From IMG/VR virus record IMGVR_UViG_2617270964_000015: a DNA stretch of 15,512 nt, one strand, 5' to 3'. The position numbers were made by a program, and so were the translations under genes. Numbering within the stretch: the stretch's first letter is position 1; each line of letters begins with the position of its first letter. A model generated the notes under the pieces. That model was not told where the DNA came from. It saw nothing but the letters and a program-made list of their open reading frames with translations, and did not search any database. The DNA is from a virus (taxonomy: Duplodnaviria; Heunggongvirae; Uroviricota; Caudoviricetes). This document shows positions 1,258-14,267 of this stretch, piece by piece.

Positions 1258-1388
1258 TAACTTTCATCCTTCTGATCGTTTTCGAATTTGCTTTCATTTT
1301 CTTGCTCCTCATAAGGCTGATGTCGTTGTCCTTGTCGTTCATCTTGCTCAGTCAATACCCAACGTTGTGCTGTAACTCATTATGAAAA

Positions 1389-2999
1389 CTATTTAATTCC
1401 CTCATCATTGATAAGATTGGACATCTCTTTCAACATGAGAGTCATTGAAGCTTTCGACCAATTTAGCGGAATGATAGGGCTTGGCGCTTCATGCAAAGTT
1501 CCCGACTTGTGGATATAGTTATAGCTTTCGGGAAGTGCCATTTCTGGTACGCTCCTGCCATTTGCACCAATCATATTCTCGCCTGTTATTTGGGCCAATG
1601 ATCTATTCATAAATTGCACTGAGTCATTCAAATACTCTTCTTTTCTTGATTCTTTATAAACAATTGCTGCTGATTTTGCATACCATGAGTCAAAAAACCA
1701 TTCTGCTTCTGTTGATGGAATGAAGCTCTTTTCTCTTTTCACATGTGAATTTTGATCGGTATCGGTTTTAATATCATTGAACCAAAAATTTGCCGACTGA
1801 TAATTATCCTTCTCGTATCTTTTTATACCATACGGACCTGCTAGTTTTTTAACTATTTTTAGAACCTGCTCTTTTCTTCTGGTGTTTATCTTTGCAAGAT
1901 TTGCAGGATAAATAACATTAAGTAAAGCCGCATCGGCTTCTCTGTAATGTTTATCTTTTTCCAGATAACCTGGGGATTCTCCCCCTAAATCAAGCTGTAA
2001 CGTTATTCTTTCATAACCTTTATCTATGAGGTGGTTCAACCTCGTTGTTGAAAGAGGTTCATCCAGTTCATTGGCTTTAGCTTCGCGTAGTAAATCAGAG
2101 ACAAAAACAGAGTCTTTCTTCGAGAGTAAGTTCGACAAACGTTCCAGTCCAGAGGTCACCAGTGCAACGGAAGATGTGTTTAATCGGGCATCTTCTTCCC
2201 ATGCTCCGGAATCTTCCATAACATAGAAATTGGCTTTATCCAGATAAGCAATCAGCAGCGCAACCGATTTTAATCGGTCACCTTTTTGCCAATCTTCAGC
2301 GTTAATTGTACCAGTGTCGATTGCTTGTATAAGGAGATCAAGATAAAGACCTAACGCATCATTTTGTTTATGGTTCCACAGCTGCGGCTTGCCTTCTTCC
2401 TGCACATCTGCCATCACGGGGAAGTTGCTGTCAAATCGGATATGCACAGCATTCATTTGCCCGGGAACTCCATCCAGTCGTTTGGGGTTGCTAATGACGT
2501 CCTGCATCCGCTTAATCTGGTCGGGCGTAGACATATAATCCCACAGGGTGAGCAGAACCTTTTTTGCGGCTACACTATTTCCCTGATCTGATACTAATGC
2601 CATATAGCCCCATAAACTATCCCTCAGCCAGACAGCATCATAGTGGGTTTCTGCCGCTGTTTTGTCATCTTCGAAAGTAGAAGCAAGAATAAATGTTCCC
2701 CAGGGTTTCTCCGTCAACGTTAACTTTCGTGTGTTTTCTGTTAATGTTAACAACCCTTGAATTTCGTCTTTGGTATAGTGGCTCTTTATTTCATTTTTTA
2801 ATTTGGCTGAGTGAATCAGAAGACGATAATTAGGGTACTTATCTGGATTTAACGATAAATAACTTTTATCTGTTGCTGCCCCCGTGGAATTAAGAATGTT
2901 AAATACAGATTCACTCGTCACTTCTGCCCCTGTCGCCTGGCATGTGCCGCACGAAAATATACCAGCGAGCAGAAGAGTTAATGCAGATTTCCCTTTCAT
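1389..2999 (-). CDS. Glycoside hydrolase family 15-like (glucoamylase-like) exported protein or lipoprotein
   Basis: Long ORF (track 1389..3041 begins at a GTG). The ATG at 2999-2997 gives MKGKSALTLLLAGIFSCGTCQA, a signal peptide with a possible lipobox cysteine. Internal DSGAWEED resembles the GH15 catalytic-region signature (S-G-x-W-E-E). AT-rich gene. Confidence 0.6.
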   Translation of the reverse strand: MKGKSALTLLLAGIFSCGTCQATGAEVTSESVFNILNSTGAATDKSYLSLNPDKYPNYRLLIHSAKLKNEIKSHYTKDEIQGLLTLTENTRKLTLTEKPWGTFILASTFEDDKTAAETHYDAVWLRDSLWGYMALVSDQGNSVAAKKVLLTLWDYMSTPDQIKRMQDVISNPKRLDGVPGQMNAVHIRFDSNFPVMADVQEEGKPQLWNHKQNDALGLYLDLLIQAIDTGTINAEDWQKGDRLKSVALLIAYLDKANFYVMEDSGAWEEDARLNTSSVALVTSGLERLSNLLSKKDSVFVSDLLREAKANELDEPLSTTRLNHLIDKGYERITLQLDLGGESPGYLEKDKHYREADAALLNVIYPANLAKINTRRKEQVLKIVKKLAGPYGIKRYEKDNYQSANFWFNDIKTDTDQNSHVKREKSFIPSTEAEWFFDSWYAKSAAIVYKESRKEEYLNDSVQFMNRSLAQITGENMIGANGRSVPEMALPESYNYIHKSGTLHEAPSPIIPLNWSKASMTLMLKEMSNLINDEGIK

Positions 3000-3306
3000 A
3001 AAATATTCCATCAATCGTTTGTTAAAAGCGTAGATAACCACTTATTTAACAACTTGAAAATAAGGTGTTTTACCTGGGTTGTTACAAAAGGATTGCATTG
3101 CGTAAACGCTTTTTATTTACAACAAAATGGGGAAATATTACGGCGATTGCGAAAAGTCTGAAGCGATTGAATTAAGATAATATAGAAAATCAGATACAGC
3201 AAAAATGGCAGATTGATGAGGCGAAGATAAATTGGAGCGGCGAAGGGAACAATACAACAAGCAACAAGACCAGTAATAAAGGCACATTCTCGAGTTCTAA
3301 AATAGA

Positions 3307-3328
3307 TTCTATACACATTTCTATACAC
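3307..3328. repeat. Near-tandem 10-bp direct repeat ttctatacac x2 (2-bp spacer) in the AT-rich upstream region of the GH15-like gene
   Basis: ttctatacac at 3307-3316 and again at 3319-3328. Confidence 0.5.
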
Positions 3329-3830
3329 GTTTATCACTCGCTTGGGGATTACACATCCCTGTTATCCGTGATCAAGCTGGTGGCGTTCCTGTTGCAGCAC
3401 AACGGAAACAGGTAGTGAACATCCGTTAAGTTTGCTTGCTGGTTACCGGGTTGAAATGGGTTAGTAGGGGGAGCGGTACGCATTCCACGTATCGGTTTCG
3501 TATCCGGTGGATGTTCTGCGTACTTTTTTGCACAAGACCAGTAATGGCGGTCTTTCCGCTGGTACGCACTTTTCTTTTTGCGTACCACTTTTGCGCACTT
3601 TTTCAAGGTCGGATCACAGATTCCCACCATTATGGGACCAGTTGAAGGGGCCGAACAAATCAATAGCTGTGGTGGTATCGTTTTGCATGTCAGGTTTTGA
3701 CAGGTTTTTATGGACTCCGAAAACTCACTGCACCAGATGCGCAATACATCGCGCTCATTTCGTTAACTAACGTCGCGCGCGTACTTGTCGCAAAATGTCG
3801 CAATTTTGCGTTATCGGGAATATCAGCAAG

Positions 3831-4115
3831 TTACCGCCGCAACCGTTCCGGCTTCTTCCAGTGGTAAGTAATTTTCTCCTTTTCCCGATGCATCTCCACG
3901 CGGCGACGGTATGCCAGCAACCCGAGAACTTTGGTGCGTATGTTGCGCATATCAACGCCGTTAAGCTCGATACCATCGCGGCGCATCACCTCAGCAACAA
4001 CACGCGCGTAATTTTCAGCGGTCACGCTGTCCGGCTGCGTGGCCTCCTGTGTGCCTGTAGCCTGGCTGATTCCGGTAATACTGCGGATTATCCCGAGCAC
4101 TTCGGCTTCAGTCAT
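3831..4115 (-). CDS. Hypothetical protein (~94 aa)
   Basis: Minus-strand ORF; ATG at 4115-4113 lies 8 nt downstream of a GGAGG Shine-Dalgarno (on the coding strand). A second in-frame ATG is at 4121-4119. The longer ORF-track start at 4364 would overlap the upstream lipoprotein gene. No recognisable motif. Confidence 0.35.
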   Translation of the reverse strand: MTEAEVLGIIRSITGISQATGTQEATQPDSVTAENYARVVAEVMRRDGIELNGVDMRNIRTKVLGLLAYRRRVEMHREKEKITYHWKKPERLRR

Positions 4116-4203
4116 TGTCATGGCCTCCGTAGTGATTAGGGGAGTGATGCTGTAATTGTGGCTGCTGGATCCTAGAAGGTGAAGCAGCCTACCAGCACAA
4201 TGT

Positions 4204-5256
4204 TTAGTACCCTCGAGCAGAGTAGACACGGGCCATTCCTGCCCAATGCGAAAACAGGATTTCATACTTGACTGGATTGTAATTAATGCTGCCATCCAGG
4301 GCGGCCGCATTCCATGCCCCGTCTGAAATAGTACGGTCGCTGGCTGTTTTCCCCCACTCGACAATGCTCCTCGCTATGCCCTGAACACATGCGCGATTTA
4401 ATGCCGTCTCACCAACATATGCCCCAGCGTCTGAACATGACTTCATACTCAGATCCAGGCTATTCCTGAAAAATTCCAGCCCGGCAATTGACATAAACCA
4501 GCGACCATTAGCGTATGCCACGCCATCGTTTCTTATTGTGAATTTAATAGTGTGCAGAGCATCAACAATCATCTGTTGCTCAGCTGTTGGATTCTGCCAT
4601 AACACGAGATCAATCGTTTTTTCAGAAGCCTTAGACTCTTCTTTCTCACGCTTGATGCGTTCGTCACGTTCAGCCCGGTATCGCTTTTGGTTTTCGTTAC
4701 GTAACTTCTGGTATTCAGAGGCGAGCTTATCCCGTTCCTGTGCAAAAGTAGCCAGACTCGTTTTAAAATCGCTTTCGTTGACTGTAACAAGCCCCATGCT
4801 CCAGCGATCATTTCCATAATCAGTATAGATAGCGTCAACTTTTGCCGGATTGCTCAATGCTATGGCTAGGTTAACCAGAATCTTCGAGGCTTCCTCACCA
4901 GTTTTGGAGCTATTGTCAAACCTGGATAGTTCCCCGACTCCATTGCCCCCATATTCATGGTAAGCAGCGTAAAACACAGGGATTGTCTGAGGTTTACTAT
5001 TAACCGCCTGGATAATACTTTTATCGTCGCACGTCAGCCCGTCCCACTTAAAGAGACTGCCACCACCGCTTTTGTATGCCTCACAATCATCGATACCCAG
5101 ACGAACCAACGCAGTCCAGCCGGGGCGCTTCTTATACTTGTCGCTTTTGGCGATATGCATTTGTGTTAACGCTTTTGCGGGATCGATCTTCCCCGCGGTG
5201 CAGCCTGTGAACATTAACGCCAAAGAGGTTAAAGCAATGCGATTGATTAAATTCAT
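4204..5256 (-). CDS. Putative lipoprotein with a central coiled-coil segment
   Basis: ORF 4204..5289; the internal ATG at 5256-5254 gives MNLINRIALTSLALMFTGCTAGK, an N-terminal signal with a lipobox-like cysteine. The middle is rich in charged residues (ERDKLASEYQKLRNENQKRYRAERDERIKREKEESKASEK), typical of coiled coil. Start at 5289 is also possible. Stop TAA at 4206-4204. Confidence 0.6.
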   Translation of the reverse strand: MNLINRIALTSLALMFTGCTAGKIDPAKALTQMHIAKSDKYKKRPGWTALVRLGIDDCEAYKSGGGSLFKWDGLTCDDKSIIQAVNSKPQTIPVFYAAYHEYGGNGVGELSRFDNSSKTGEEASKILVNLAIALSNPAKVDAIYTDYGNDRWSMGLVTVNESDFKTSLATFAQERDKLASEYQKLRNENQKRYRAERDERIKREKEESKASEKTIDLVLWQNPTAEQQMIVDALHTIKFTIRNDGVAYANGRWFMSIAGLEFFRNSLDLSMKSCSDAGAYVGETALNRACVQGIARSIVEWGKTASDRTISDGAWNAAALDGSINYNPVKYEILFSHWAGMARVYSARGY

Positions 5257-5335
5257 TATCCTTGTGTCCAGAGTTAGGTCGACCGGCATAGCTTACCCGT
5301 GGAGAAATGAATCGTCGAATGAGTTTGGTCGGGAG

Positions 5336-6007
5336 TTATTCCACCAGCAAAAATGGCGTTGCCCGGTCAATAACGTTGATGCCAATTAACGAGCTAACAT
5401 TGCGACCATTCACAATGCTATCCCGTTCAAGCAAATGCGCTATTTTTTCTACTTCATACCAGTATTGAGCCATGAGGGCTTTGGTCTTTTCAACGAGTTT
5501 AGAAAGCATTAACTCCCTGTTAATTCGCTTATCTGTAGCGCAGATTAAATCGAGCATGTCATTTACGTTAGCCATGTCATAGCGATGAGGCAGCGAATAC
5601 TTTTTGTTGAAAATATCGTTGTTTTCGTAAAGGGCTTCGCTTACTGGTCCGGCGAGGGATACAAAAGCGGCCTTTATTGCATCGCGCTTTATACCATCCG
5701 CATAGTAACGTATGAAAGGGATAACTTTACCATCCCGCCCAACTACACCAGATTTACTATCCCGCAAACGCCCGAGATCGTGGCTGTGAATTATGCTGTG
5801 TTTAACAACGCCCAAACACTTGGCCTCATGTACATGTTCGCCAGCAACGTAACCGTATTCATCCATAACGGCGATAACCTGTACATCTAAGCGAATAAGC
5901 CATGCAGCTACTGCATGGCCCGCTTCGTGGAATGCTACACATCGTTTACCATCGCCTATCCAGTTATAGAACATTTCCTGCTCATATATCTGGTGAATGG
6001 CGCCCAT
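5336..6007 (-). CDS. Stand-alone FtsH/peptidase-M41-like HExxH zinc metalloprotease domain protein (no AAA ATPase domain)
   Basis: ATG at 6007-6005 overlaps the upstream stop (TAATG). The translation carries CVAFHEAGHAVAAWL, with the HEAGH codons at about 5914-5928 on the minus strand, resembling the FtsH protease-domain zinc motif (HEAGHA). Downstream SLAGPVSEALYEN and NVNDMLDLICATDK resemble later FtsH protease-domain segments. At 223 aa it is too short to include an ATPase module. Confidence 0.6.
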   Translation of the reverse strand: MGAIHQIYEQEMFYNWIGDGKRCVAFHEAGHAVAAWLIRLDVQVIAVMDEYGYVAGEHVHEAKCLGVVKHSIIHSHDLGRLRDSKSGVVGRDGKVIPFIRYYADGIKRDAIKAAFVSLAGPVSEALYENNDIFNKKYSLPHRYDMANVNDMLDLICATDKRINRELMLSKLVEKTKALMAQYWYEVEKIAHLLERDSIVNGRNVSSLIGINVIDRATPFLLVE

Positions 6008-6183
6008 TACGCGCCCTCGCTTGCCAGTGAGGCCAGAGCCTTAGCCATGAGGCCGCGGGCAATCTGGTGAACGGTGGGAGCGACGCCGAGATTGGAGCGC
6101 TGGCGTTCACGTTCCTGAATGTTGCGTATGGCCTGCATCTGCTCGGCGGACAGCAGGACCGGCTTAACGTTTGGCTTTCTCAT
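6007..6183 (-). CDS. Small basic protein (~58 aa), translationally coupled to the protease-domain gene
   Basis: The ORF-track frame 6007..6276 begins at a TTG (6276-6274, shown as M). The ATG at 6183-6181 gives MRKPNVKPVLLSAEQMQAIRNIQERERQRSNLGVAPTVHQIARGLMAKALASLASEGA; an ATG at 6207-6205 is also in frame. Stop TAA (6009-6007) overlaps the downstream ATG. The true start is uncertain. Confidence 0.35.
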   Translation of the reverse strand: MRKPNVKPVLLSAEQMQAIRNIQERERQRSNLGVAPTVHQIARGLMAKALASLASEGA

Positions 6184-6358
6184 TCTGTTCACTCCAGAAC
6201 CGTGCATTTGATTCGTTGAGTTGCTGCAGGTTGCGACTCTGGCGATCGAAGTTATTGCGTGCCTTTGCCGCTTCAAGATCCTGACGGGTCAGCATCGGGC
6301 GGTGGGCGCGCTGTGGGTTGCCTGCGGCTAATTTCGGGTCATAGATAGGCATGCTCAT
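6164..6358 (-). CDS. Small hypothetical protein (64 aa)
   Basis: ATG at 6358-6356 sits 6 nt after the stop of the 183-aa gene and is preceded by AAAGAG. The 3' end overlaps the start region of the 58-aa ORF in another frame by about 20 nt. Confidence 0.4.
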   Translation of the reverse strand: MSMPIYDPKLAAGNPQRAHRPMLTRQDLEAAKARNNFDRQSRNLQQLNESNARFWSEQNEKAKR

Positions 6359-6364
6359 ATCTCT

Positions 6365-6916
6365 TTAGTGTTTTTTGCCCCAGAAGGTGGCGTTGTCAGC
6401 ATTGATGCTGCGGATTGCGTCTCCTGTAGAAATTATTTTCGGAGCGATATTGTTTGCTTTCATGTAGTCGCCAACCTGCTCGAGTATATCGATAGCCTGA
6501 TCCAGCTGGATTTCTGACATTGGGGTAGGGTGTACGGCGCTGAACGCCTCAGCAGGGGCGTAGCGCAGCACATCGAGCGCAACGATGCGCGGGTCGGCGT
6601 CGGGCAGTGCTGAATCGTATTTCGGCGCTACGGCACGTACCAGACGCATGAACTCAGCATTCATTGCTATCGGTGCCGTGGAAGTAGCAGACGTGCCATT
6701 CAAACCGCGGGAAATCATATCACTGTCGCGGGTGTACATGCGGCGCAGGCGGTCGCCGGTGGCGATGCGCATTTTGCGTTCTTTCTCGAGTGTCGTTGCA
6801 AGACTTGCAATGATGGTCGCAACGGTTCCGCTGCACTGGAACTCCTCTTTACTGCCGTCGGCATACGTCACCACGCCATCTTCGCCAGTCACGGCGATGT
6901 TTGTAATATCTTTCAT
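6365..6916 (-). CDS. Hypothetical protein (183 aa), first gene of a four-gene cassette
   Basis: ATG at 6916-6914 with GAGG 8 nt upstream on the coding strand. Stop TAA at 6367-6365. No motif I can assign. Confidence 0.6.
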   Translation of the reverse strand: MKDITNIAVTGEDGVVTYADGSKEEFQCSGTVATIIASLATTLEKERKMRIATGDRLRRMYTRDSDMISRGLNGTSATSTAPIAMNAEFMRLVRAVAPKYDSALPDADPRIVALDVLRYAPAEAFSAVHPTPMSEIQLDQAIDILEQVGDYMKANNIAPKIISTGDAIRSINADNATFWGKKH

Positions 6917-7030
6917 CGGTCAGACCTCAGTATGTTCTATCGGATATTTATGTTTCATTATACGCAATAATGATATTTATTGTTGCAATTATTGCAATGT
7001 GTTTTTCTTGTGATAACATGCAAATTGAGG
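6917..7030 (-). promoter_or_regulatory. Promoter/operator-like region upstream of the 183-aa gene
   Basis: AT-rich. A perfect TATAAT on the minus strand (plus-strand attata at 6957-6962). Two adjacent palindromes: caataa-tgatat-ttattg (6965-6982) and ttgcaat-t-attgcaa (6983-6997). The best -35 candidate, ttgcaa, lies 20 nt from the -10, which is too far, so exact promoter geometry is unresolved. Confidence 0.4.
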
Positions 7031-7087
7031 TCAGAACTCAATGAGTTGGTTCCAAACATGGTTACTGGTACACAAAAGCCCGTGCGT

Positions 7088-7115
7088 CTCCAGCGCGGGC
7101 TTTTTACTGGCACAA
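7088..7115 (+). terminator. Intrinsic terminator-like hairpin (plus strand), A-run before and T-run after
   Basis: gcccgtg / cgcgggc stem (7 bp with one G-U pair), 9-nt loop, followed by ttttt at 7111-7115 and preceded by aaaa. Confidence 0.45.
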
Positions 7116-7123
7116 AAAAGCCG

Positions 7124-7147
7124 GGAAAAATCCCGGCCTCCGTCACT
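7124..7147 (-). terminator. Rho-independent terminator of the ProQ-like/PerC-like operon
   Basis: Minus-strand reading: stop TGA of the PerC-like gene, then gccggga-tttt-tcccggc (perfect 7-bp GC-rich stem, 4-nt loop; plus coordinates 7130-7147), then tttttt (plus-strand a-run 7124-7129). Confidence 0.65.
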
Positions 7148-7430
7148 GACTGCAATTTTTCGATCCAGGGTATTTCCTGAATGCCTTACCATTGGGCTGA
7201 TGTAATCCCATCCCGGCATGTGCCCGGCTGATGGTTTCGCGCATCTCCCCGAAATTATCCTGCCTTGCTGGTGGGCGTGCTGCCTTGTGGATACATTCCG
7301 CACGACGCTTTGCCGCCTGTTCCCGTGCCTTGTCATCATTCGCCAGCATGATGACCTCAGCCCACCGCGCCGCCGCTCTCCGGTACAGGCCACGCGCTTC
7401 CAGTGCTTCCGCTTTGCTGTCGTGAATCAT
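7143..7430 (-). CDS. PerC-family-like small transcriptional regulator (95 aa)
   Basis: N-terminus MIHDSKAEALEARGLYRRAAARWAEVIM matches my recollection of the PerC-family N-terminal signature (AE-LE--G-YRRAA-RW-EV). ATG at 7430-7428 overlaps the upstream stop (ATGA, 7427-7430). Confidence 0.5.
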   Translation of the reverse strand: MIHDSKAEALEARGLYRRAAARWAEVIMLANDDKAREQAAKRRAECIHKAARPPARQDNFGEMRETISRAHAGMGLHQPNGKAFRKYPGSKNCSQ

Positions 7431-7969
7431 GCGCCTGTTTTCTCCCTGGCTGCCCGGCGCTGGCGTTTGCGCTTCTCATTCAGCGCCACCAGCCGCGTTT
7501 CTGCCTCCTGCTGTTCCTGTGGTGTCACTTCCCCACATGGCTGGCCTTTCAGGTCGTAGCGTCCCCCACCAGCCATTAAGGCGCGGTAATAGCGCGGACA
7601 CTGCGCATAAGATGCCAGCGTCGCACGTAATGCCCCTGGCCCGAATGCCAGCCCCCTGACGGCGAGATCCTGCATCAGGTCGTCGAATATCCCCACCTTA
7701 AGCGGCTTCGGTGCTTCCCGGCTGAATAATTCAGGCCACAGTTCGATAAGGCGGTTAACGCGTCTGCGGTTTTTGCGCTGGCGTTTGGTCATATGCCGCC
7801 ACGGTGTCGCCCCTGTGGGCTTCTGCTGCGCTTTCTGGTTATCGGGCATCACTTTATGCGCCGATGTGGTTTTATCCTGCTCCTGTGCCGCCTGCGTCGT
7901 TTTCTGCGGCGTGCCGTAAATGCCTTTAGGTTTTCTGTTAATGGTCAGCTTTGTCATGCTTTGCCCCAT
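7427..7969 (-). CDS. ProQ/FinO-family RNA-binding protein
   Basis: PLKVGIFDDLMQDLAVRGL...YRALMAGGGRYDLKGQPCGEVTPQEQQEAETRL parallels the ProQ N-terminal FinO-like domain as I recall it (PLKIGIF-DL, RYL, R-DL-G-PCGE) and is followed by a basic tail. ATG at 7969 or at 7957-7955; the latter has GGGG 6 nt upstream. Confidence 0.7.
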   Translation of the reverse strand: MGQSMTKLTINRKPKGIYGTPQKTTQAAQEQDKTTSAHKVMPDNQKAQQKPTGATPWRHMTKRQRKNRRRVNRLIELWPELFSREAPKPLKVGIFDDLMQDLAVRGLAFGPGALRATLASYAQCPRYYRALMAGGGRYDLKGQPCGEVTPQEQQEAETRLVALNEKRKRQRRAAREKTGA

Positions 7970-7974
7970 CGTTA

Positions 7975-8312
7975 CAACTGTCTACCAACTGTCTACTGAT
8001 ATAATTTATTGATTTATTTCATATTATTCACACATGAATAAAAAACAACCTATCAACTATCTACCAACTGTCTACCGCATTAATGCATTGATAATTAATG
8101 ATTTTTACTAAATGGTAGACAGAGTAGACAGTTAAAAGAGAAATTTTAAAAATGAACCCTTAACTATCTGTTTTTATATACCCCCCGTGGTTTAGGAATA
8201 TAGAAACAACTGTCTACTCTCTACCACATTTAAAAATATCTATACAATTCAATGTATTAATTGGTAGATAGTTGGTAGAGGGTTAAGTATTACTGTCTAC
8301 CAACAGTCTACC
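7975..8312. repeat. Iteron array: about 12 copies of a 10-11 bp motif CAACTGTCTAC(C) in six tandem pairs, both orientations; putative replication origin
   Basis: Direct pairs at 7975-7996 (caactgtctac x2), 8054-8075 (caactatctac + caactgtctac), 8207-8226 and 8292-8312. Inverted pairs at 8114-8133 (ggtagacagagtagacagtt) and 8262-8280 (ttggtagatagttggtagag). AT-rich stretches lie between pairs at about 8000-8050 and 8135-8200. The array sits directly 3' of the primase gene. Confidence 0.6.
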
Positions 8313-8339
8313 TTTACGTTTCAGCTTATAAATTTCGTA

Positions 8340-10145
8340 TTATGTTCTGTCGTTAATCCCTGTTGCTGCTGGCAACCAGCCATCAGCATCATCATCTAAC
8401 AGAACATTTGTTATCACTCGCCCTTTATCCGGGCCTTTAGTGCATTTAGCCCGCTTATACTCCTTTCCGTATTCCGCCATAGCACCCGGCATATCAGTGC
8501 CAAAGCGTTTCAGTGATACTGGTTTTCCCAGACCATGCGCTGACATATAGGCTAAATAAGCATGATACAGATATCGCCTCGGGCTAAATGGCACTATTCC
8601 CGCATTACCCACCATCATTCCTTCACATTTAACCAACGACATCAGATATCCGCAAAAGTCCACCAGTGAATCACCCTCACGTTTTATCACCAGAGCCTCT
8701 TCTGATTTCTGCTGCTCATATAACAGACGTCTGGCTTCATCCTGGTCAGAAAAACGAGTAAGCAGGTGGCGAATCACTACCGCCAGTTCGCCTTCTATTT
8801 TTTCCACCAGCATGGGATCGCGTTCGTTCTCCGGTACGACCTCAGAGAAATTAAATATCACCCTACGACGCGAGATCCCCCCGCTTCGGTCACTGAATGA
8901 CATGGCGTTATTGTTTACTGCCAGCACTACCGCCGGAATACGAGTGGAGTATGGGGCTTTATGTTTCGGGTCGATCGCCACCTTGTCACCACCAGTAATT
9001 GCCTTAATTCCTGCACCATCACCAGCGTAGCGGGTCATATCCGGCATGATAATCAGCGAAAAGCCAACGACTAACGCGCGTTCCCTTGCGTCTTCCAGCG
9101 CCTTCATGCTTGCCGATACTGTATTGGCCTTACCCGCCAGCATGGTACAAATCTCCGCCATCACACTTTTACCGCTTCCGCCCGGCCCCGTTACCTCAAG
9201 GAATAACTGCCAGTCGTACCGGTTCGCCAGTACCATGAATAATGCCGCCAGTACGCGATCTGCTTTACGATCGTTATTTGCCACCGAACGACGCAGCCAC
9301 TTCCAGAAATTCGGCGCATGTGTTGCCAGTGTTTCCCCCTCTGCTGGTGGGCTGAACGGTAATTCACTGGCATTTAACAACCAGTCATTTTTGTTATGCT
9401 CCCGAAAATTTCCTGTCCGGGTATCAAATACCCCGTTACTGAATCCAATAAGATTCCTGTCTGCCCCGCCCATAACAGGCAGGCTCAATTTCATTGTGTC
9501 TACGGCAAATTTAATGGCGTTTTGCGAATAACTGATTCCAGCATCAATAAAAATCTTCGCCATAGACCGCTGGAGTTCCTTATCAGATACAGGCTCCCAG
9601 ACAATTCCGTTGTAATGGTGAACTACATCAGAATCGTCATTTATAGCCAGTGCCCTTCCATAATATTCAAGCAATACTTCCCCTCTCTGGCTGGCTCCCA
9701 TCTGATTTAGTGCTGGCCTGGGTAGGTCACTATTTTTTGTGACTAATTTCATCGCTGAAACTTCCCCGCGCTCTGCCTGTTCGCGGATCCGTTGCAGGTA
9801 ATCGCGCCAGTTCTCCGGCTCCCGGTCGGTGATGCCTTTGTATAATTTCGCCTCCTGTACGCCAGCCAGTGCCAGTTTTTCAGCGATAGCATTGATCTGG
9901 ATTGGTTCGATCTCCCCCGCGAGATAGACACGCGCAAAGCGGCGTTCATCGTCGACAATGCGGATATTCGCCAGGTCTGCCAGTTGCTTTGGCCCCAAGT
10001 AAACAGGTGGTACGTTATCGCCGTGCTTCCGTCCTTCGCTTTCAATCCAGTGTTGAGCATGGGAGTAAGCATCCGTCCCGGCAAAAATGATTACCTCAGT
10101 GAATTTATCCTTCGGCTGATATTTCAAATTCGGTGCGTTTTTCAC
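8340..10145 (-). CDS. P4-family phage/plasmid primase-like replication protein with P-loop NTPase module
   Basis: 601-aa ORF with Walker A GPGGSGKS. Overall resemblance to satellite/PICI primase-replication proteins is from memory only. Start is GTG at 10145-10143 with GGAGG just upstream, overlapping the upstream gene's stop (GTGA). Stop TAA at 8342-8340. Confidence 0.8.
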   Translation of the reverse strand: MKNAPNLKYQPKDKFTEVIIFAGTDAYSHAQHWIESEGRKHGDNVPPVYLGPKQLADLANIRIVDDERRFARVYLAGEIEPIQINAIAEKLALAGVQEAKLYKGITDREPENWRDYLQRIREQAERGEVSAMKLVTKNSDLPRPALNQMGASQRGEVLLEYYGRALAINDDSDVVHHYNGIVWEPVSDKELQRSMAKIFIDAGISYSQNAIKFAVDTMKLSLPVMGGADRNLIGFSNGVFDTRTGNFREHNKNDWLLNASELPFSPPAEGETLATHAPNFWKWLRRSVANNDRKADRVLAALFMVLANRYDWQLFLEVTGPGGSGKSVMAEICTMLAGKANTVSASMKALEDARERALVVGFSLIIMPDMTRYAGDGAGIKAITGGDKVAIDPKHKAPYSTRIPAVVLAVNNNAMSFSDRSGGISRRRVIFNFSEVVPENERDPMLVEKIEGELAVVIRHLLTRFSDQDEARRLLYEQQKSEEALVIKREGDSLVDFCGYLMSLVKCEGMMVGNAGIVPFSPRRYLYHAYLAYMSAHGLGKPVSLKRFGTDMPGAMAEYGKEYKRAKCTKGPDKGRVITNVLLDDDADGWLPAATGINDRT

Positions 10146-10432
10146 TTCTTACCTCCCGCAACCAACATTGCCCGGATTTTTTTAATATTCGTGGCTGCAC
10201 GTCTCGCCACTGCCTGTTGTTTGTTTTCAAGCAGAATAAAATCACGCTCAAACTGACGGCGCGGCATTACGCAGTCATATTCGTAAGCCTCACGGCGGTA
10301 GGTGATATTGCCTGGCGTAACGTGACGAATAACCACTCGTCCCCCACGCCTGGTGTCGCGGTAAATATCTCCGTGTCTGATTTCAGGTCGAGAGAGGCCG
10401 CTGGCAGTAAAGCCAGAATTTTTCTTTTTCAT
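10142..10432 (-). CDS. Hypothetical basic protein (96 aa), translationally coupled to the primase gene
   Basis: ATG at 10432-10430; stop TGA overlaps the primase GTG start. Lys/Arg-rich, no motif assigned. Confidence 0.5.
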   Translation of the reverse strand: MKKKNSGFTASGLSRPEIRHGDIYRDTRRGGRVVIRHVTPGNITYRREAYEYDCVMPRRQFERDFILLENKQQAVARRAATNIKKIRAMLVAGGKK

Positions 10433-10638: not shown

Positions 10639-11000
10639 GATTCCCCCCCCCCCTGAATAACCTGATAACCGCAACTGGTCAGCAATTCGATAAATTCCGG
10701 CAATGTGCCGAAACAGCAATCATCACGCAGACGTTCGCGGGATACCTCAACGTCGTTTTCATAATGGCTCACCATGCGTCCGGTAAAATGCAAATCATCA
10801 TCGTGATGGCACGTTGACGGTTTAATCAGTCGCGCACGCTCTGCCAGTTCCAGCAATGCTTCAACACTTCCGGCAATTGCACCATCCGGCAGGTGGTAAT
10901 TACGCACTATGCGCCCGTTCTCCACATGGACCAGTAGCTGCCCGGTAAATTTCTCGTCAAACTGAATGCGGTTAAGGTCGGTAAGTGACAGGTTAATCAT
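10614..11000 (-). CDS. Hypothetical protein with two internal repeats (128 aa as read), ending just after a G11 tract
   Basis: ATG at 11000-10998 overlaps the upstream stop (ATGATTAA). Repeats DEKFTGQLLVHVENGRIV and DLHFTGRMVSHYENDVEV. C-terminus ...VIQGGGESWIISKQQ is encoded across the homopolymer. Confidence 0.5.
   Translation of the reverse strand: MINLSLTDLNRIQFDEKFTGQLLVHVENGRIVRNYHLPDGAIAGSVEALLELAERARLIKPSTCHHDDDLHFTGRMVSHYENDVEVSRERLRDDCCFGTLPEFIELLTSCGYQVIQGGGESWIISKQQ
10643..10653. repeat. Homopolymeric tract C11 (G11 on the coding minus strand) inside a coding region
   Basis: ttcccccccccccctg; eleven consecutive C at 10643-10653. Confidence 0.9.
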
Positions 11001-11358
11001 GGCGCACCTCCTGGCGAATACGGGCGGCGAATACCATCACGCAGCCATCAGGAGATTGCTGGCGTGCTTCCTGTTCGCTGGTGGCCTCGATGTGAATCAC
11101 GCGCGGTTGTGCCGTACTCAGGGCGATAAAACGCCAGATAGAATTGTTTTCGCATTTCTGAATAAACAGCGTGTTTTCTTCGCGCCCTTTCCATGTTGCC
11201 GAGATATAGCCCATGTCATTGAGCATCTCGCAGGCATCCACCAGCGTATCAGCGGCTACGTGTACAGTGTTTTTACCGTCAGCTATGCAATCACGGTGCA
11301 CCGCCAGGAAGGTGTATATAAATTTAGGGTGAGTTTGGGTATGCTGTGTTCCAGCCAT
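10993..11358 (-). CDS. Hypothetical protein (121 aa), first gene of the primase operon
   Basis: ATG at 11358-11356 with GAGG upstream on the coding strand. This is the 3' third of the 382-aa ORF-track entry 10993..12141, whose upstream part crosses the divergent regulatory region and a plus-strand gene. Stop overlaps the next start. Confidence 0.5.
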   Translation of the reverse strand: MAGTQHTQTHPKFIYTFLAVHRDCIADGKNTVHVAADTLVDACEMLNDMGYISATWKGREENTLFIQKCENNSIWRFIALSTAQPRVIHIEATSEQEARQQSPDGCVMVFAARIRQEVRHD

Positions 11359-11557
11359 AATCGTTACCTCGTTTAACGGTTTGGTTAGAAGCCCCGTTAC
11401 TGCTCCAACAGTGCGGGGCTTCGTTGTTTCAATTGCTGAATTGCATGTATCAGCCCTTGTGGTATTCAGATTACATTTTGGTGAATACCATTTCAAGTCT
11501 TTTTTGGTATTCACTTTTGTATTACACTGCATCCCGTTATTAATCGGAGGTGCAAAC
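11359..11557. promoter_or_regulatory. Divergent intergenic control region with hairpin and GGTATTCA operator-like repeats
   Basis: Stem-loop gaagccccg-(17 nt)-cggggcttc at about 11390-11425. Three copies of GGTATTCA / TGAATACC at about 11460-11516, one inverted. GGAGG at 11546-11550 precedes the ATG at 11558. Confidence 0.45.
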
Positions 11558-11863
11558 ATGTCCACGAGTTCTGTTAACAATAAGTCACAGCAACTGAATG
11601 CCAGATTTCCACATGAAGTAGTGAGTGGCATTGAGGCATCCCTACAGCCAGGGGAAACTAAAGCGAATTTTATAGTTACGGCTGTACGCGGTGAGATCGC
11701 CCGCCGCCAGGCAGAAGGAAGCGGAGAAAACCCCCTAGTTTCTTCGCTCGATGCGCTGGCGCAGGTGGAAAAAATCGGTGTCAAAGCTGCCGAGGAGATC
11801 GGGCAACTCGTCACCGTCGCGCGTGAAGAACTCCAGCGGCGCAAGGCCAAAGAACAGGAGTAG
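11558..11863 (+). CDS. Ribbon-helix-helix (Arc/MetJ-type) DNA-binding regulator, 101 aa
   Basis: ATG at 11558 seven nt after GGAGG; the ORF-track start at 11381 is unlikely because it crosses the control region. QQLNARFPHEVVSGIEA then ANFIVTAVRGEIARRQ fits the beta-strand-helix-helix pattern of Arc-like repressors. It is the only confident plus-strand gene inside the element. Confidence 0.55.
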   Translation: MSTSSVNNKSQQLNARFPHEVVSGIEASLQPGETKANFIVTAVRGEIARRQAEGSGENPLVSSLDALAQVEKIGVKAAEEIGQLVTVAREELQRRKAKEQE

Positions 11864-12087
11864 TTGATCAGCACCGGGCAACCAGAAAAAATCGTATCAG
11901 TTGCGCCACCAGCAAATTTTTTTGCTTTCCGGACGACGTTGCCAACGGCATTTTGCAGCAAAATATTCCGCATTTCTGGCGTACTGTAGTAACGGTGATC
12001 AGCGCCTTCACTCTGTGCGACCACAACGCTATAATCTGCCTCGTAGACAGTAAGCAATATAGCGCAGTAGAATATTCGTTCACAAAG

Positions 12088-12119
12088 GCGCTCCGGCAAC
12101 GGGGCGCTTTCTCTTTTTG
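12088..12119 (+). terminator. Intrinsic terminator-like hairpin, plus strand
   Basis: gcgctcc-ggcaac-ggggcgc (7-bp stem with one G-U pair, 12088-12107) followed by tttctctttttg (12108-12119). It lies about 225 nt past the stop of the plus-strand regulator gene and about 27 nt past the stop of the convergent minus-strand gene. Confidence 0.5.
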
Positions 12120-12133
12120 TAACGGTCAGAGCG

Positions 12134-12982
12134 TTACACATGGCTGTTTTCCTCCATGCGACGGGCTAACCAACGCTGCGAAAGACGAATTAATTCAGCT
12201 TTCCGCTGGTGGTAGTCCTGGCCTAACTCAATCAGCGTGATATTGCTCTGCTCAAGGTAAGAAAGGTGCTCAAGCTGCAACGTGCTCATGTGGTCGCGTG
12301 GTTCGCCTGTAATGCCGTTCGCCTGCGCCCACTGTTTTGCAGTCATGCCACCCAGCACGATACGCGCCAGCATATTGGCTTCCGTGGTGTAGTGGTGCTG
12401 GAGTGTGTTTTTACCCAGCTCAGCCCGGTATGCTTCCAGCGCGGCGCACATCGGCTTAAAGTAGCTGGCAACGGTGATACGGGCTTTCAGTTCCCGGCGT
12501 AACGCTGCGGAACGCACTGGCGCTACCTTGTGTAGCTCCTCCTCGCATTTGATGAAGTACTGACGAACGGCACGGCCCTGTTCGGTGCGTTCGACCATCG
12601 CCAGTTCTTTTGCCATGTTCGTGGAGATCAAATAGTCTTCACTGCGACGATCACCGCCGCGCTTTGTTGTCCAATCAGAATCAAACTGTTCAATATTTAC
12701 ACTTTGGTTCCCCCGTTTCGGGGAATCAAAGTACAAATTTTCTACAACTTTAAAATCCACGCCATTTTTAAATCCGTACTCATCAATACGTCCTTTAATC
12801 CAGGTAGTGAAATCACGGCCTCCCCCGAGCGCCTTATGCAACGCTCTGGCGCTAACAATATTGGTTTCACGCCCGCCAATAACGCCGGAAATAACCGGGA
12901 TAATTTCGCCGAAATTTTGCAGATTCTGGTTTTCAGGCCGAACTAAGCCCTGCCCCTGTACGGGCGTTTTTCGCTGTTTCAT
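12134..12982 (-). CDS. AntA/AntB-family phage antirepressor-like protein
   Basis: ATG at 12982-12980 with AGGAG 5 nt upstream. N-terminal region ARALHKALGGGRDFTTWIKGRIDEYGFKNGVDFKV ... MAKELAMVERTEQGRAVRQYFIKCEE matches the AntA-domain pattern I recall (DF-TWIK-RI--YGF, AKELAMVER--G---RQYFI-CE). Confidence 0.65.
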   Translation of the reverse strand: MKQRKTPVQGQGLVRPENQNLQNFGEIIPVISGVIGGRETNIVSARALHKALGGGRDFTTWIKGRIDEYGFKNGVDFKVVENLYFDSPKRGNQSVNIEQFDSDWTTKRGGDRRSEDYLISTNMAKELAMVERTEQGRAVRQYFIKCEEELHKVAPVRSAALRRELKARITVASYFKPMCAALEAYRAELGKNTLQHHYTTEANMLARIVLGGMTAKQWAQANGITGEPRDHMSTLQLEHLSYLEQSNITLIELGQDYHQRKAELIRLSQRWLARRMEENSHV

Positions 12983-13059: not shown

Positions 13060-13260
13060 TCAGGTAGCTGTTCCGCGTGATTCCGCAATACGCTGATTAA
13101 TCCACTCGTCAATTTCACTCTCAACGAAAGCAATAGCTCGCGAGCCAATTTTTACAGGTTTAGGAAAACTCCCTTGGGCAATGAGTTTATAGATCCATGC
13201 CCTTCCATAGCCTGTACGGCGCATGGTTTCTGACATACGAATTAAATTTTGCTTATCCAT
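13060..13260 (-). CDS. alpA: AlpA-family transcriptional regulator / excisionase-like HTH protein
   Basis: MDKQNLIRMSETMRRTGYGRAWIYKLIAQGSFPKPVKIGSRAIAFVESEIDEWINQR matches the AlpA family (small HTH protein ending -EIDEWI-QR). ATG at 13260-13258 has AGGAG 6 nt upstream; the ORF-track start at 13305 is less likely. It lies downstream of int on the same strand, as in P4-like and PICI elements. Confidence 0.75.
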   Translation of the reverse strand: MDKQNLIRMSETMRRTGYGRAWIYKLIAQGSFPKPVKIGSRAIAFVESEIDEWINQRIAESRGTAT

Positions 13261-13317
13261 ACACTTCTCCTGATGCATATAAAAGTCTGTTTCTGGAATA
13301 TACACAAGAGAAGGATG

Positions 13318-13380: not shown

Positions 13381-14267
13381 CTGTACTCCTCTGGGATAAC
13401 CAAGCGGAAATCATCTTTTGTTTCCACTCCTGTTTTGCCAATTCCTTCTGAACAAAGAATATTTCTAATTGTACCTACTTTAGGCGTATTAACAGCATCA
13501 ATAGAATAAAGCAAGGAGTGTATTTTATTGATAATTAATGTCGTATGGCTCCACGGATAAGAAATACGAGTAGCTTTCGCTACATCAACAATAACATTTC
13601 GATAGATATTTCTAGGCTTACCCACCATTTTGTTAATTGTTTCGCAACTACGTGAATTCACCCCATCCATTTTACTTTTAATAAAATCGGGATACTTTTC
13701 CATAGATGATTTGACTTGGTTTAATCTCCAATTTATTGTCACCCCACCATTTTTAAGCAAAAATAATTCACTTTTAGTTATAACTAAATCGCTTGTTTTA
13801 ATATTTATACCGCCATTAATTAAAATTACTCGTGGGTTATAATCCTCCAAGTTATAGTGCGTAAAAGATGGAAGCCTCACTGGATATAGCCTATCAACAA
13901 CAAATTCTTTTACGTTATCAAAATCAGCATCCATCTTAAAAAGATTGGATATTCGGACAGAAAAAAGACCACAGGCCTTAATGACTTTTCTATGTTTTAA
14001 CTTTCCATTAGATTCGCAACTAATAACTTCACTTATTTTTGCATAGTTAGAGCGATGTCTGAATTTTTTACTTCTTGTATTAGAAAATATTTCTTTATTA
14101 AATTTACCACGAACAGAGACCCTTCCTTCTTCAATAAGCTCTGACAAATCTATATTTATTGCTACATCAACCATTCCGATTGATATATAGTGAAATAAAT
14201 CATAAACATCTCTATTTATCTCAAAAGCTGCTTTATTCAGAGTGTAAAACAATCTTTCAGGAAGCAT
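13359..14267 (-). CDS. Hypothetical AT-rich cargo protein (302 aa) between int and alpA
   Basis: ATG at 14267-14265 with AGGTGA upstream, only about 30 bp after the integrase stop. Uninterrupted 302-codon ORF in clearly AT-rich DNA (by eye about one-third G+C, against about half in flanking int and alpA). Asn/Ile/Lys-rich; no catalytic motif I can name. Confidence 0.6.
   Translation of the reverse strand: MLPERLFYTLNKAAFEINRDVYDLFHYISIGMVDVAINIDLSELIEEGRVSVRGKFNKEIFSNTRSKKFRHRSNYAKISEVISCESNGKLKHRKVIKACGLFSVRISNLFKMDADFDNVKEFVVDRLYPVRLPSFTHYNLEDYNPRVILINGGINIKTSDLVITKSELFLLKNGGVTINWRLNQVKSSMEKYPDFIKSKMDGVNSRSCETINKMVGKPRNIYRNVIVDVAKATRISYPWSHTTLIINKIHSLLYSIDAVNTPKVGTIRNILCSEGIGKTGVETKDDFRLVIPEEYRKLFKLN

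What the first reader, a model, noticed from the sequence alone, without database searches (positions are those of the whole stretch)
7143..7969. ProQ/FinO-family RNA chaperone coupled to a PerC-like regulator beside the putative origin
A FinO-domain protein and a PerC-like regulator share an ATGA overlap and begin immediately after the outermost iteron pair. FinO-family proteins on mobile elements usually act through a small antisense RNA, which implies an RNA-based control layer for replication or transfer that the ORF map does not show. The untranslated stretch at 11864-12087 is a candidate partner.
Basis: partly seen in the sequence, partly recalled or inferred. Interest (0 to 1): 0.45.

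Follow-up and report, generated by a model that had tools for sequence, protein, structure and literature searches.

The report
RNA-chaperone and PerC genes on satellite
Two overlapping genes beside the replication origin of a small phage-satellite island do encode a FinO/ProQ-type RNA-binding protein and a PerC-type regulator, but public genome records already annotate this pair in hundreds of E. coli genomes, it looks like an optional add-on rather than the replication control, and its RNA partner is still unknown.

Summary
7427-7957(-) is a FinO/ProQ-domain protein by HMM, by predicted fold and by the conserved RNA-contact Tyr and Arg. 7143-7430(-) is a full-length PerC-family protein. The two genes share an ATGA overlap. 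They start 15-19 nt after the last of 12 iterons of an AT-rich origin that follows a primase gene.

The host element is a ~12 kb EcCICFT073-like phage-inducible chromosomal island (PICI). A near-identical relative sits at tRNA-Gly.

RefSeq already annotates "ProQ/FINO | PerC | primase" in 346 of 5426 complete E. coli genomes. FinO-like genes occur in at least 1093 of them and never on plasmids.

The cassette is accessory: EcCICFT073, whose pri-ori module replicates a plasmid, has SSB-PerC and no FinO. The FinO gene also occurs in a second type of island. No known RNA family matches.

The proposed partner stretch (11864-12087) co-occurs with this FinO/PerC type: 52/52 loci against 0/55 others, with one exception in a shorter contig outside that set. 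Only its terminator hairpin is structurally conserved. The stretch also lies inside a minus-strand reading frame that is kept open from the antA stop into the icd-like gene in 43 of 44 variants.

Verdict: a new member of a known kind, of modest interest.

The parts
7427..7957 (-). FinO/ProQ-domain protein gene, 176 aa (an alternative upstream ATG at 7969 gives 180 aa). The N-terminal ~51 residues are predicted disordered, followed by a basic patch RKNRRRVNR. The FinO domain covers ~58-145. A long C-terminal helix ends in KRKRQRRAAREK.
   Evidence: Pfam PF04352 E 3.2e-23. PDB profile hits: ProQ 5nb9 E 3e-19, FinO 1dvo 1e-17, RocC 7rgt 5e-13. AlphaFold2 pLDDT is above 90 for residues ~60-165. 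Foldseek finds only FinO-domain structures at E<=1e-4, with target TM 0.6-0.84. Y123 and R133 are invariant in 14 homologues and align with ProQ Y70 and R80.
7143..7430 (-). PerC-family protein gene, 95 aa, translationally coupled to the FinO gene.
   Evidence: PF06069 E 5e-32 over the whole model; phrog_994 E 3e-35; 52% identical to the PerC-like protein of EcCICFT073.
7427..7430 (-). ATGA stop/start overlap between the two genes.
   Evidence: Read from the sequence. About 120 of 151 FinO-bearing loci (not de-duplicated) have an ATGA junction, nearly always into a PerC allele.
7976..8312 (.). Putative replication origin: 12 iterons (consensus AACTGTCTACC), mostly in pairs in both orientations, in 24-33% GC DNA directly 3' of the primase gene.
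   Evidence: The arrangement fits the description of Gram-negative PICI origins, with iteron sets flanking an AT-rich region 3' of the replication gene (PMC6092414).
8340..10145 (-). Primase/helicase gene (D5_N, DUF5906, Pox_D5; P4-family primase C-terminal domain). The DUF4222 (RgdR-like) gene at 10142-10432 lies upstream and overlaps it.
7113..7141 (-). Intrinsic terminator T2 directly after the perC stop: a GGAGGCCGGGA/UCCCGGCUUUU stem with a 4-nt UUUU loop, followed by a U-rich tail (UUGUG).
   Evidence: Fold. The 48 nt around it are conserved after perC in many relatives. The simple terminator scan did not list it.
7074..7104 (.). Second, bidirectional terminator-like hairpin T3 (AAAAGCCCGUGC...GCGCGGGCUUUU). 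It occurs only in relatives with the same cargo genes.
   Evidence: (I15).
11864..12133 (.). No gene is annotated here in relatives. It contains palindromes GCAAATTTTTTTGC (11912-11925) and ATTTTGCAGCAAAAT (11950-11964), a promoter-like TTCACT-17-TATAAT (12007-12035, +) and terminator T1 (12085-12120, +).
10993..12141 (-). 382-codon open frame. Its ATG overlaps the antA stop (ATGTGTAA) and has a GGAGGAA Shine-Dalgarno sequence 9 nt upstream. It runs through T1, the candidate stretch, the antisense of ylcI, the operator region and the leader hairpin, then continues in frame into the icd-like gene (10993-11358).
   Evidence: Only residues 331-381 match a protein family.
11558..11863 (+). YlcI/YnfO-family gene, 101 aa. 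It diverges from the icd-like/primase operon. A repeat TGGTATTCA(C) occurs three times in the shared control region (11462-11512). My reading of it as the island's repressor, with a ribbon-helix-helix-like motif, is an inference only.
   Evidence: phrog_6522 E 1e-46 over its full length. RefSeq names the homologue in L020 'YlcI/YnfO family protein'. Sequence.
11388..11422 (-). Conserved leader hairpin ~30 nt upstream of the first start codon of the early operon. It is also present in FinO-less islands.

Best explanation
The segment is a two-gene accessory cassette at the distal end of the early (replication) operon of an EcCICFT073-like phage-inducible chromosomal island.

Shown: the first gene encodes a FinO-domain protein with an intact RNA-binding surface and basic, disordered extensions, an architecture like FinO and FopA. 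The second gene encodes a PerC-family protein and is translationally coupled to the first. No terminator-like site is predicted between the primase gene and the cassette, and two terminator hairpins follow it. The cassette is optional for this family of islands.

Inferred: the pair is made mainly by read-through from the primase operon across the origin when the island is induced. The FinO-like protein binds terminator-type hairpins with U-rich 3' tails and stabilises or matches RNAs. It fine-tunes island regulation, or helper or host RNAs, rather than acting as the replication switch.

The best in-cis candidates are the RNAs that end at T1 (12085-12120, +). These are the ylcI-like mRNA with a ~220-nt 3' UTR, or a ~75-nt RNA from the promoter-like site at 12007-12035. 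The cassette's own T2-terminated mRNA is a further candidate. The actual ligand is not identified.
For: Identity of the two proteins.

Operon layout: no minus-strand terminator-like site between 8340 and 7957, and tandem hairpins after perC.

Same backbone as EcCICFT073: int, alpA, ylcI on the opposite strand, icd-like, DUF4222, primase, origin.

Accessory nature: EcCICFT073 and 81 loci of its type have SSB-PerC but no FinO. The slot after the origin holds varying sets of the 85-aa gene, SSB, PerC and FinO in either order. The FinO gene also stands alone in another island type. The cassette has 57-66% GC next to an origin of 24-33%.

T1-linked candidate: in 107 de-duplicated informative loci, 11864-12041 is present in 52/52 with FinO plus a PerC at least 70% identical to this one. 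It is present in 0/20 FinO loci with another PerC or none, and in 0/35 without FinO. The 52 span about 20 combinations of integrase, primase, AntA and DUF4222 identity classes. The -35 TTCAC and the -10 TAnAAT are kept while the spacer and the transcribed 5' part vary.

Published FinO-family ligands are mostly terminator hairpins (PMC9977716).
Against: There are no expression data of any kind.

The promoter of the cassette is not defined, and an own promoter inside the AT-rich origin cannot be excluded.

The co-occurrence may reflect shared descent. The two modules flank the exchangeable replication module, so double crossovers would keep both. L119 carries a 79%-identical copy of the stretch with no FinO or PerC.

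Only the T1 hairpin is conserved as structure, with 0 compensatory pairs. T1 itself also occurs in FinO-less EcCICFT073.

Many FinO-bearing islands lack the stretch.

The stretch lies in a conserved open frame on the other strand. That gives a different reason for its conservation.
Confidence: 0.55

Rival explanations
1. The FinO-like protein works with a dedicated island-encoded antisense RNA to set replication or copy number, as FopA does with Inc/repZ or FinO with FinP/traJ. The stretch 11864-12087 encodes that RNA.
For: The gene sits next to the origin and inside the replication operon. Mobile-element FinO proteins studied so far do act on element-encoded antisense RNAs (PMC7491321, PMC9977716). 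The stretch co-occurs 52/52 against 0/55 with this FinO/PerC type. It has promoter-like and terminator elements.
Against: A PICI replication module works without any FinO gene (PMC6092414). The stretch is not antisense to the primase or DUF4222 start regions; it lies ~1.7 kb upstream of them, between ylcI and antA. There is no conserved structure apart from the terminator and no Rfam match. At least 20 de-duplicated FinO loci lack it. The iteron-like 9-mer inside it (12042-12052) does not co-vary with the origin: L013 has the same origin but a different allele of the stretch.
Confidence: 0.15
2. The pair is host-directed cargo. PerC and the FinO-like protein reprogramme host gene expression (virulence, motility, stress), the latter by binding or competing for ProQ-type host RNAs. 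They have no role in the island's own life cycle.
For: [quoted passage not shown] The cassette is accessory, has a distinct GC content and is found in several island types. FinO-like genes are in at least 1093 of 5426 genomes, with up to 9 places per genome.
Against: The cassette has no predicted promoter or terminator separating it from the primase gene, so it would be expressed mainly on induction. The PerC homologues of EcCICFT073 and EcCIEDL933 were reported to have no effect on LEE1 (as cited in PMC11773190). The 52/52 co-occurrence with an island-internal stretch would be unexplained.
Confidence: 0.2
3. The FinO-like protein targets RNAs of other mobile elements: helper-phage regulatory RNAs, or FinP-like RNAs of F-type plasmids (fertility inhibition in trans).
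For: The domain is 30-37% identical to plasmid FinO proteins. The review reports a case of RNA mimicry across plasmids, in which the RepX sRNA imitates FinP to engage FinO from a different plasmid (PMC9977716). Interference with the helper phage is a described feature of PICIs (PMC6092414).
Against: There is no specific evidence. The curated FinO model is not met (61.8 against 136 bits). The family is nearly absent from bona fide phages (7 distant hits).
Confidence: 0.07
4. The cassette is a decaying passenger without function in this element.
For: Some copies are frameshifted or split (L019; O157 strain 86-24). PerC is a 40-aa remnant in the L004/L087 group.
Against: Both genes are intact here, and the RNA-contact residues are invariant across 58-91% identical homologues. 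The family is widely retained.
Confidence: 0.03

Closest known systems
FopA (YafB) of IncI plasmid pCol1B9 with Inc antisense RNA and repZ mRNA
   Same: A small FinO-domain protein on a mobile element, with basic N-terminal stretches, no ProQ C-terminal domain, and the conserved Tyr/Arg pair. It is tied to a replication module (PMC7491321).
   Different: The best plasmid matches are at most ~37% identical over the domain, apart from two higher-identity hits, at least one in a chromosome-sized record. No Inc-like antisense RNA opposite a rep leader was found here. This family is on chromosomal islands only: 0 plasmid places in 1562. It is coupled to PerC.
FinO of F-like plasmids with FinP and traJ
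   Same: FinO fold: 1dvo, TM 0.61, rmsd 2.0 A over 102 columns. A basic extension precedes the domain.
   Different: The NCBIfam FinO model scores 61.8 bits against a cut-off of 136. There is no tra system, no FinP match and a different genomic setting.
ProQ (E. coli chromosome) and RocC (Legionella)
   Same: The same domain and RNA-contact residues. The expected ligand type is a terminator hairpin with a U tail (PMC9977716).
   Different: There is no ProQ linker or Tudor-like C-terminal domain. The ProQ equivalog model is not met (56 against 127 bits). This gene is element-borne and present in only about a fifth of E. coli genomes.
EcCICFT073, the validated E. coli phage-inducible chromosomal island
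   Same: Same gene order: int, alpA, ylcI on the opposite strand, icd-like, small genes, DUF4222/RgdR, primase, origin, then an accessory slot with PerC. DUF4222 is 51% identical and PerC 52%.
   Different: EcCICFT073 has 85aa-SSB-PerC, no FinO gene, capsid-type cargo and a truncated antA. It lacks 11864-12041 and keeps only T1.
PerC of the EPEC EAF plasmid, Pch proteins of EHEC, and EcCIMP1_025
   Same: PF06069 family over the full length.
   Different: At most 57% identical to any plasmid-borne PerC found. Published PICI homologues activate, ignore or repress LEE1 (PMC11773190, PMC6092414), so the function of this allele cannot be transferred from them.
Phage P1 immI operon (c4 RNA, icd, ant)
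   Same: An Icd-like gene heads the operon, next to an antirepressor-family gene. From my own recollection of Biere et al. 1992, which I did not check here, icd translation in P1 prevents Rho-dependent termination. That resembles the open-frame bridge seen here.
   Different: No C4 RNA match. The gene order differs: antA lies upstream. The 290-690-codon open frame has no described counterpart that I know of.

Membership tests
FinO/ProQ family (PF04352) | FinO domain recognised above the curated threshold | tested here: met
   82.2 bits against a cut-off of 27, E 3.2e-23. Profile hits to ProQ, FinO, RocC and NMB1681 chains.
FinO/ProQ family (PF04352) | FinO-domain fold | tested here: met
   AlphaFold2 pLDDT above 90 over ~60-165. 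The 26 Foldseek PDB hits with E<=1e-3 are all FinO-domain structures.
FinO/ProQ family (PF04352) | Conserved RNA-contact Tyr and Arg (ProQ Y70/R80; FopA Y146/R157) | tested here: met
   Y123 and R133 are invariant in 14 homologues and aligned to ProQ RY...TRVD. The role of these residues is taken from PMC7491321.
FinO/ProQ family (PF04352) | Binds structured RNA and promotes RNA stability or pairing | not testable with these tools
   Needs EMSA, CLIP or RIP.
FinO/ProQ family (PF04352) | Identifiable cognate RNA (antisense RNA and target pair) on the element | tested here: inconclusive
   No Rfam match. The candidate stretch co-occurs 52/52 against 0/55, but only its terminator is structurally conserved, and there is one exception, L119.
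FinO proper / ProQ proper (NCBIfam NF010317, NF003434) | Score above the curated subfamily or equivalog cut-off | tested here: not met
   61.8 against 136 bits and 56.1 against 127 bits. This is a separate branch, not an orthologue of either.
PerC family (PF06069) | Full-length match above the curated threshold | tested here: met
   110.5 bits against 22.6, positions 1-89 of 90.
PerC family (PF06069) | Activates the LEE1/ler promoter | not testable with these tools
   Published PICI homologues differ: some activate, some have no effect, one represses (PMC11773190, PMC6092414).
Gram-negative PICI (EcCICFT073 type) | int, alpA, and a pri/rep gene followed directly by an iteron origin around AT-rich DNA | tested here: met
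   Synteny with EcCICFT073.
Gram-negative PICI (EcCICFT073 type) | Small size, no phage structural or lysis genes | tested here: met
   About 12 kb, from ~3371 to beyond 15512. The island ORFs scanned gave no structural or lysis family hit.
Gram-negative PICI (EcCICFT073 type) | Site-specific insertion with att repeats | tested here: inconclusive
   The right end is outside the window. The near-identical L013 lies next to tRNA-Gly. No tRNA gene is found in the window.
Gram-negative PICI (EcCICFT073 type) | Induction, replication and packaging by a helper phage | not testable with these tools
   Indirect support only: a related 12,152-bp element is assembled as a circular 'plasmid' in strain Z1323CEC0013.
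P4-like satellites | psu, delta and sid genes, and the CI (C4-type) immunity RNA | tested here: not met
   No such families among the scanned ORFs. No C4 match.

The most novel reading that the evidence does not exclude
The FinO-like protein, this PerC allele and the 11864-12120 stretch form one regulatory module of a PICI subfamily. The chaperone acts on RNAs ending at hairpin T1. T1 sits exactly where a conserved 'ribosome-transit' open frame carries transcription and translation from the alpA-antA operon, across the repressor gene, into the replication operon. The chaperone would thereby set whether the satellite commits to replication. This would be the first RNA-chaperone-dependent switch described in a phage satellite.
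Probability: 0.1. Interest if true: 0.7.

Novelty: new member of a known kind. Interest (0 to 1): 0.35.

Why it matters
FinO-domain proteins are one of the main families of bacterial RNA chaperones. Every studied mobile-element member (FinO, FopA) led to a defined antisense-RNA circuit.

This branch is borne on chromosomal islands and is present in about a fifth of complete E. coli genomes, sometimes in several copies. I found no experimental study of it in the searched library.

If it has a specific ligand, it would add an RNA layer to phage-satellite biology, or to host regulation by satellites. As it stands, the finding is a correct annotation plus a reasonable but unproven inference.

Tried and rejected
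- **Rfam.** I scanned the whole window and, more permissively, 11250-12150 and 6900-8400. Nothing came near any gathering score. The weak sar, ctRNA, OrzO-P, RsaJ and leader-peptide hits are generic hairpins. Relatives carry only tRNA and the int-alpA RNA.
- **Coding test of 11864-12133.** There is no third-position excess in any frame (25/36/27), and non-synonymous differences far outnumber synonymous ones. It is not an ordinary protein gene, although one minus frame is kept open.
- **Covariation in the ~85-nt candidate sRNA.** There are 0 compensatory pairs, and only T1 is in the consensus structure. A CACC/GGUG versus UGCC/GGCG pairing that I saw by eye was not recovered.
- **Iteron-like 9-mer at 12042-12052 as a link to the origin.** Rejected. 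It is at chance level (3 matches outside the origin against 2.5 expected for the whole window), and it is absent from alleles that share the same origin.
- **Leader hairpin 11388-11422 as a FinO-specific element.** Rejected, because it is present in many FinO-less loci.
- **T3 and the + strand RNA 7015-7104.** These travel with the cargo genes, not with FinO.
- **Genome-contig scan.** It gave only 2 loci.
- **Phage collection.** No match to the stretch, and only 7 distant FinO hits.
- **PADLOC on the cargo and on the cassette.** No hit.
- **Porter et al. 2005.** The paper on PerC-like proteins is not held in the library.
- **Promoter for the cassette.** No convincing promoter was found inside the origin (eye inspection was inconclusive).

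Full report
**1. What is there.**
The window carries, on the minus strand, a chain of genes typical of a small integrative satellite:

- integrase, 14298-15512, cut by the window end
- a 302-aa ORF
- an AlpA-family gene, 13060-13305
- an AntA-family gene, 12134-12982
- an Icd-like gene, 10993-11358
- small genes
- a DUF4222 gene, 10142-10432
- a D5_N/DUF5906 primase-helicase gene, 8340-10145
- an AT-rich repeat region
- the two genes of the finding
- two terminator hairpins
- cargo of unknown function, 6916 down to about 3400

One gene points the other way: a 101-aa YlcI/YnfO-family gene at 11558-11863 (phrog_6522, E 1e-46).

**2.
- The 7427-7957/7969 product has a FinO/ProQ domain (PF04352, E 3.2e-23).
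- A profile of 14 homologues hits the solved ProQ, FinO, RocC and NMB1681 chains.
- The AlphaFold2 model is confident over residues ~60-165 and disordered over 1-51. All 26 of its Foldseek PDB matches with E<=1e-3 are FinO-domain structures.
- Y123 and R133 are invariant. They align with ProQ Y70 and R80, the pair reported as essential for RNA binding (PMC7491321).
- The 7143-7430 product matches PerC over the whole model (E 5e-32).
- The ATGA overlap is real.
- Twelve iterons (AACTGTCTACC) lie in 7976-8312. The whole window has 15 matches against 2.5 expected by chance. GC there is 24-33%.
- The family-conserved start is the ATG at 7957.

**3. What the element is.**
The closest complete-genome relatives are 97-98% identical, and RefSeq annotates the same genes in them. 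In strain Z1323CEC0013 the element lies between tRNA-Gly and remnants of a type III secretion gene cluster. The window's left flank shows the same kind of genes: a FliN/YscQ-like ORF, a glycoside hydrolase 15 ORF and an IS1 fragment.

The gene order equals that of EcCICFT073, the experimentally validated E. coli phage-inducible chromosomal island. The origin also fits the published description of Gram-negative PICI origins: iteron sets around an AT-rich region directly 3' of the replication gene (PMC6092414). A related 12,152-bp element is assembled as a circular 'plasmid' in the same chicken isolate.

The literature already notes PerC genes as common PICI cargo (PMC6092414, PMC11773190). A ProQ/FinO gene in one PICI is listed, without study, in a 2026 Enterobacter survey (PMC13612085). 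I found no functional work on this FinO branch.

**4. How common it is, and in what company.**
- The 1.3-kb FinO-PerC-origin segment is found in 346 of 5426 complete E. coli genomes.
- FinO-like genes are in at least 1093 of them, with up to 9 places per genome and none on plasmids.
- Plasmid FinO and ProQ-family genes are at most ~37% identical. Bona fide phages almost lack the family.
- The curated FinO and ProQ models are not met. This is therefore a separate, island-borne branch.
- The slot after the origin is variable: 85aa-SSB-PerC (EcCICFT073), SSB-FinO-PerC, SSB-PerC-FinO, FinO-PerC, FinO plus an unrelated 80-aa protein, or FinO plus a PerC remnant.
- The same FinO branch also stands alone in islands with inovirus-Gp2/YfjJ-like genes. 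One is a split copy in O157:H7 strain 86-24, the only FinO-like place found in that genome.
- The ATGA junction into PerC is the dominant arrangement.

**5. Does it control replication?**
The pri-ori segment of EcCICFT073 drives plasmid replication (PMC6092414), and that island has no FinO gene. None of 81 loci of that type has one. The FinO-like protein therefore cannot be a core part of the replicon. No terminator-like site is predicted between the primase gene and the cassette. Two hairpins follow perC. The simplest reading is expression by read-through on induction. This is an inference, because no promoter could be assigned in the AT-rich origin.

**6. The proposed RNA partner, 11864-12087.**

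*For it.*
- Nothing is annotated there in the relatives listed, and 170 genomes carry the stretch at full length.
- No frame shows a coding-type substitution pattern.
- A -35 TTCAC and a -10 TAnAAT are conserved, while the spacer and the following ~40 nt vary between alleles.
- A strong terminator follows: T1, an 11-bp stem with tail CUCUUUUUGU.
- In 107 de-duplicated informative loci the stretch is present in 52/52 with FinO plus this PerC type and in 0/55 others. The 52 span many combinations of integrase and primase classes.
- Two islands have the stretch without antA (L020, L022). Several have antA and FinO but a dead PerC and no stretch.

*Against it.*
- The co-occurrence can be linkage, since both modules flank the exchangeable replication module.
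- L119 has a 79%-identical copy without FinO or PerC.
- T1 alone is also present in EcCICFT073.
- Only T1 is conserved as structure, with no compensatory change.
- There is no Rfam match.
- At least 20 FinO-bearing island types lack the stretch.

I rate a functional link at roughly one in four or five.

**7. An unexpected feature bearing on 'untranslated'.**
The stretch lies inside a 382-codon minus-strand frame (12141 to 10993).

- Its ATG overlaps the antA stop (ATGTGTAA) and has GGAGGAA 9 nt upstream.
- It runs through T1, the stretch, the antisense of ylcI, the operator region and the leader hairpin, then continues in frame into the icd-like gene.
- 44 distinct variants have spans of 689 to 1709 nt (23 length classes) between that ATG and the conserved Icd C-terminus. 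43 have no stop, and 22 of the 23 length classes keep the frame.
- Over the 300 codons upstream of the Icd C-terminus, the main cluster of variants averages about 1 stop in this frame against about 17 in each of the other two. 61 of the 87 distinct sequences have none, and EcCICFT073 itself has a 433-codon open frame.
- Only the last ~50 residues match any protein family, and the amino-acid sequence is not conserved by selection.

The frame is open but unconstrained. That fits a frame that must be translated through rather than a protein that must be made. It could couple the alpA-antA operon to the replication operon by suppressing T1 or Rho-dependent termination. This resembles what I recall for icd in phage P1, which I did not check here.

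**8. Verdict.**
The annotation part of the finding is correct and already public. The mechanistic part is a fair hypothesis that the comparative data weaken for replication control and leave open for an RNA partner. The cassette is best filed as a new, unstudied member of the FinO/ProQ family, coupled to a PerC-family protein, and carried as optional cargo by EcCICFT073-like satellites.

Noticed in passing
window 10993-12141 (-); also L209 (EcCICFT073) and about 90 distinct relatives: A reading frame in phase with the Icd-like gene is kept open for 290-690 codons in most variants. It starts at an ATG overlapping the antA stop and runs through terminator T1, the antisense of the ylcI gene, the operator region and the leader hairpin. 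43 of 44 variants with spans of 689-1709 nt have no stop, and 22 of 23 length classes keep the frame. The main cluster averages ~1 stop per 300 codons against ~17 in each other frame. The amino-acid sequence is unconstrained. It may be a translation-coupling ('ribosome transit') frame linking the antA and replication operons.
   Followed up: partly
window 10142-10432 (-): The DUF4222 gene upstream of the primase is 51% identical to the 99-aa DUF4222 protein of EcCICFT073. That protein carries RGD at residues 20-22, as published for the RgdR orthologue c1493, so I take it to be c1493. RgdR is a published regulator of type III secretion and motility. Here residue 20 is His (HGD); the paper found residue 20 to be functionally important.
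   Followed up: partly
window 6983-6997: A perfect 15-bp palindrome TTGCAATTATTGCAA overlaps the -35 of the predicted promoter of the cargo operon, just downstream of the perC terminators. It is a possible operator or activator site; whether PerC acts there is unknown.
   Followed up: no
window 11462-11512: Three copies of TGGTATTCA(C), two direct and one inverted, lie in the control region between the ylcI-like gene and the icd-like operon. Two copies flank a TTGAAA -35-like hexamer. They are likely operators of a protein repressor.
   Followed up: no
window 11912-11964: The most conserved core of the candidate stretch holds two palindromes built from GCAAAA/TTTTGC (11912-11925 and 11950-11964) around GTTGCCAAC. 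Back-to-back promoter-like hexamers point both ways. It looks like a DNA-level regulatory site.
   Followed up: no
L012 (NZ_CP148430.1, 12,152 bp circular): A 'plasmid' of strain Z1323CEC0013 is really a PICI-like element: integrase, alpA-like HTH, antA, DUF4222, ash, TOPRIM/DUF927 primase and PerC, without FinO. It was probably captured as an excised or replicating episome. The same strain's chromosome carries a near-identical copy of the window's island.
   Followed up: partly
window 7143-7969 against 7950-8350: The FinO/PerC cassette has 57-66% GC. It sits directly beside an origin of 24-33% GC.
   Followed up: no
window 10641-10651: A run of eleven C (G on the coding strand) lies at the junction of the 128-aa gene and a 50-aa gene. 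It could be a slippage or phase-variation site, or a sequencing-error hot spot.
   Followed up: no
window 3371-6916 (-): The cargo genes (183 aa, 89 aa, a 223-aa protein with a weak M41/FtsH-like metalloprotease motif match, 361 aa) match no Pfam family above threshold and no PADLOC defence model, although they occupy the slot downstream of the PerC gene. In EcCICFT073 that slot holds capsid-type genes.
   Followed up: partly
window 13383-13661 (-): There is a weak match to the HOLDH RNA model (28 bits against a gathering score of 319, E 1e-3) inside the 302-aa ORF between int and alpA. It is not a member. Relatives carry the int-alpA RNA motif in the equivalent gap instead.
   Followed up: no
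window 1-3384: The left flank is chromosomal: an IS1 InsB fragment (109-375), a YscQ/FliN-like ORF (310-1257) and a glycoside hydrolase 15 ORF (1389-3041). Similarity to islands inserted at other sites starts at 3371, and flank similarity ends at 3383/3384. This suggests a ~13-nt att core.
   Followed up: partly
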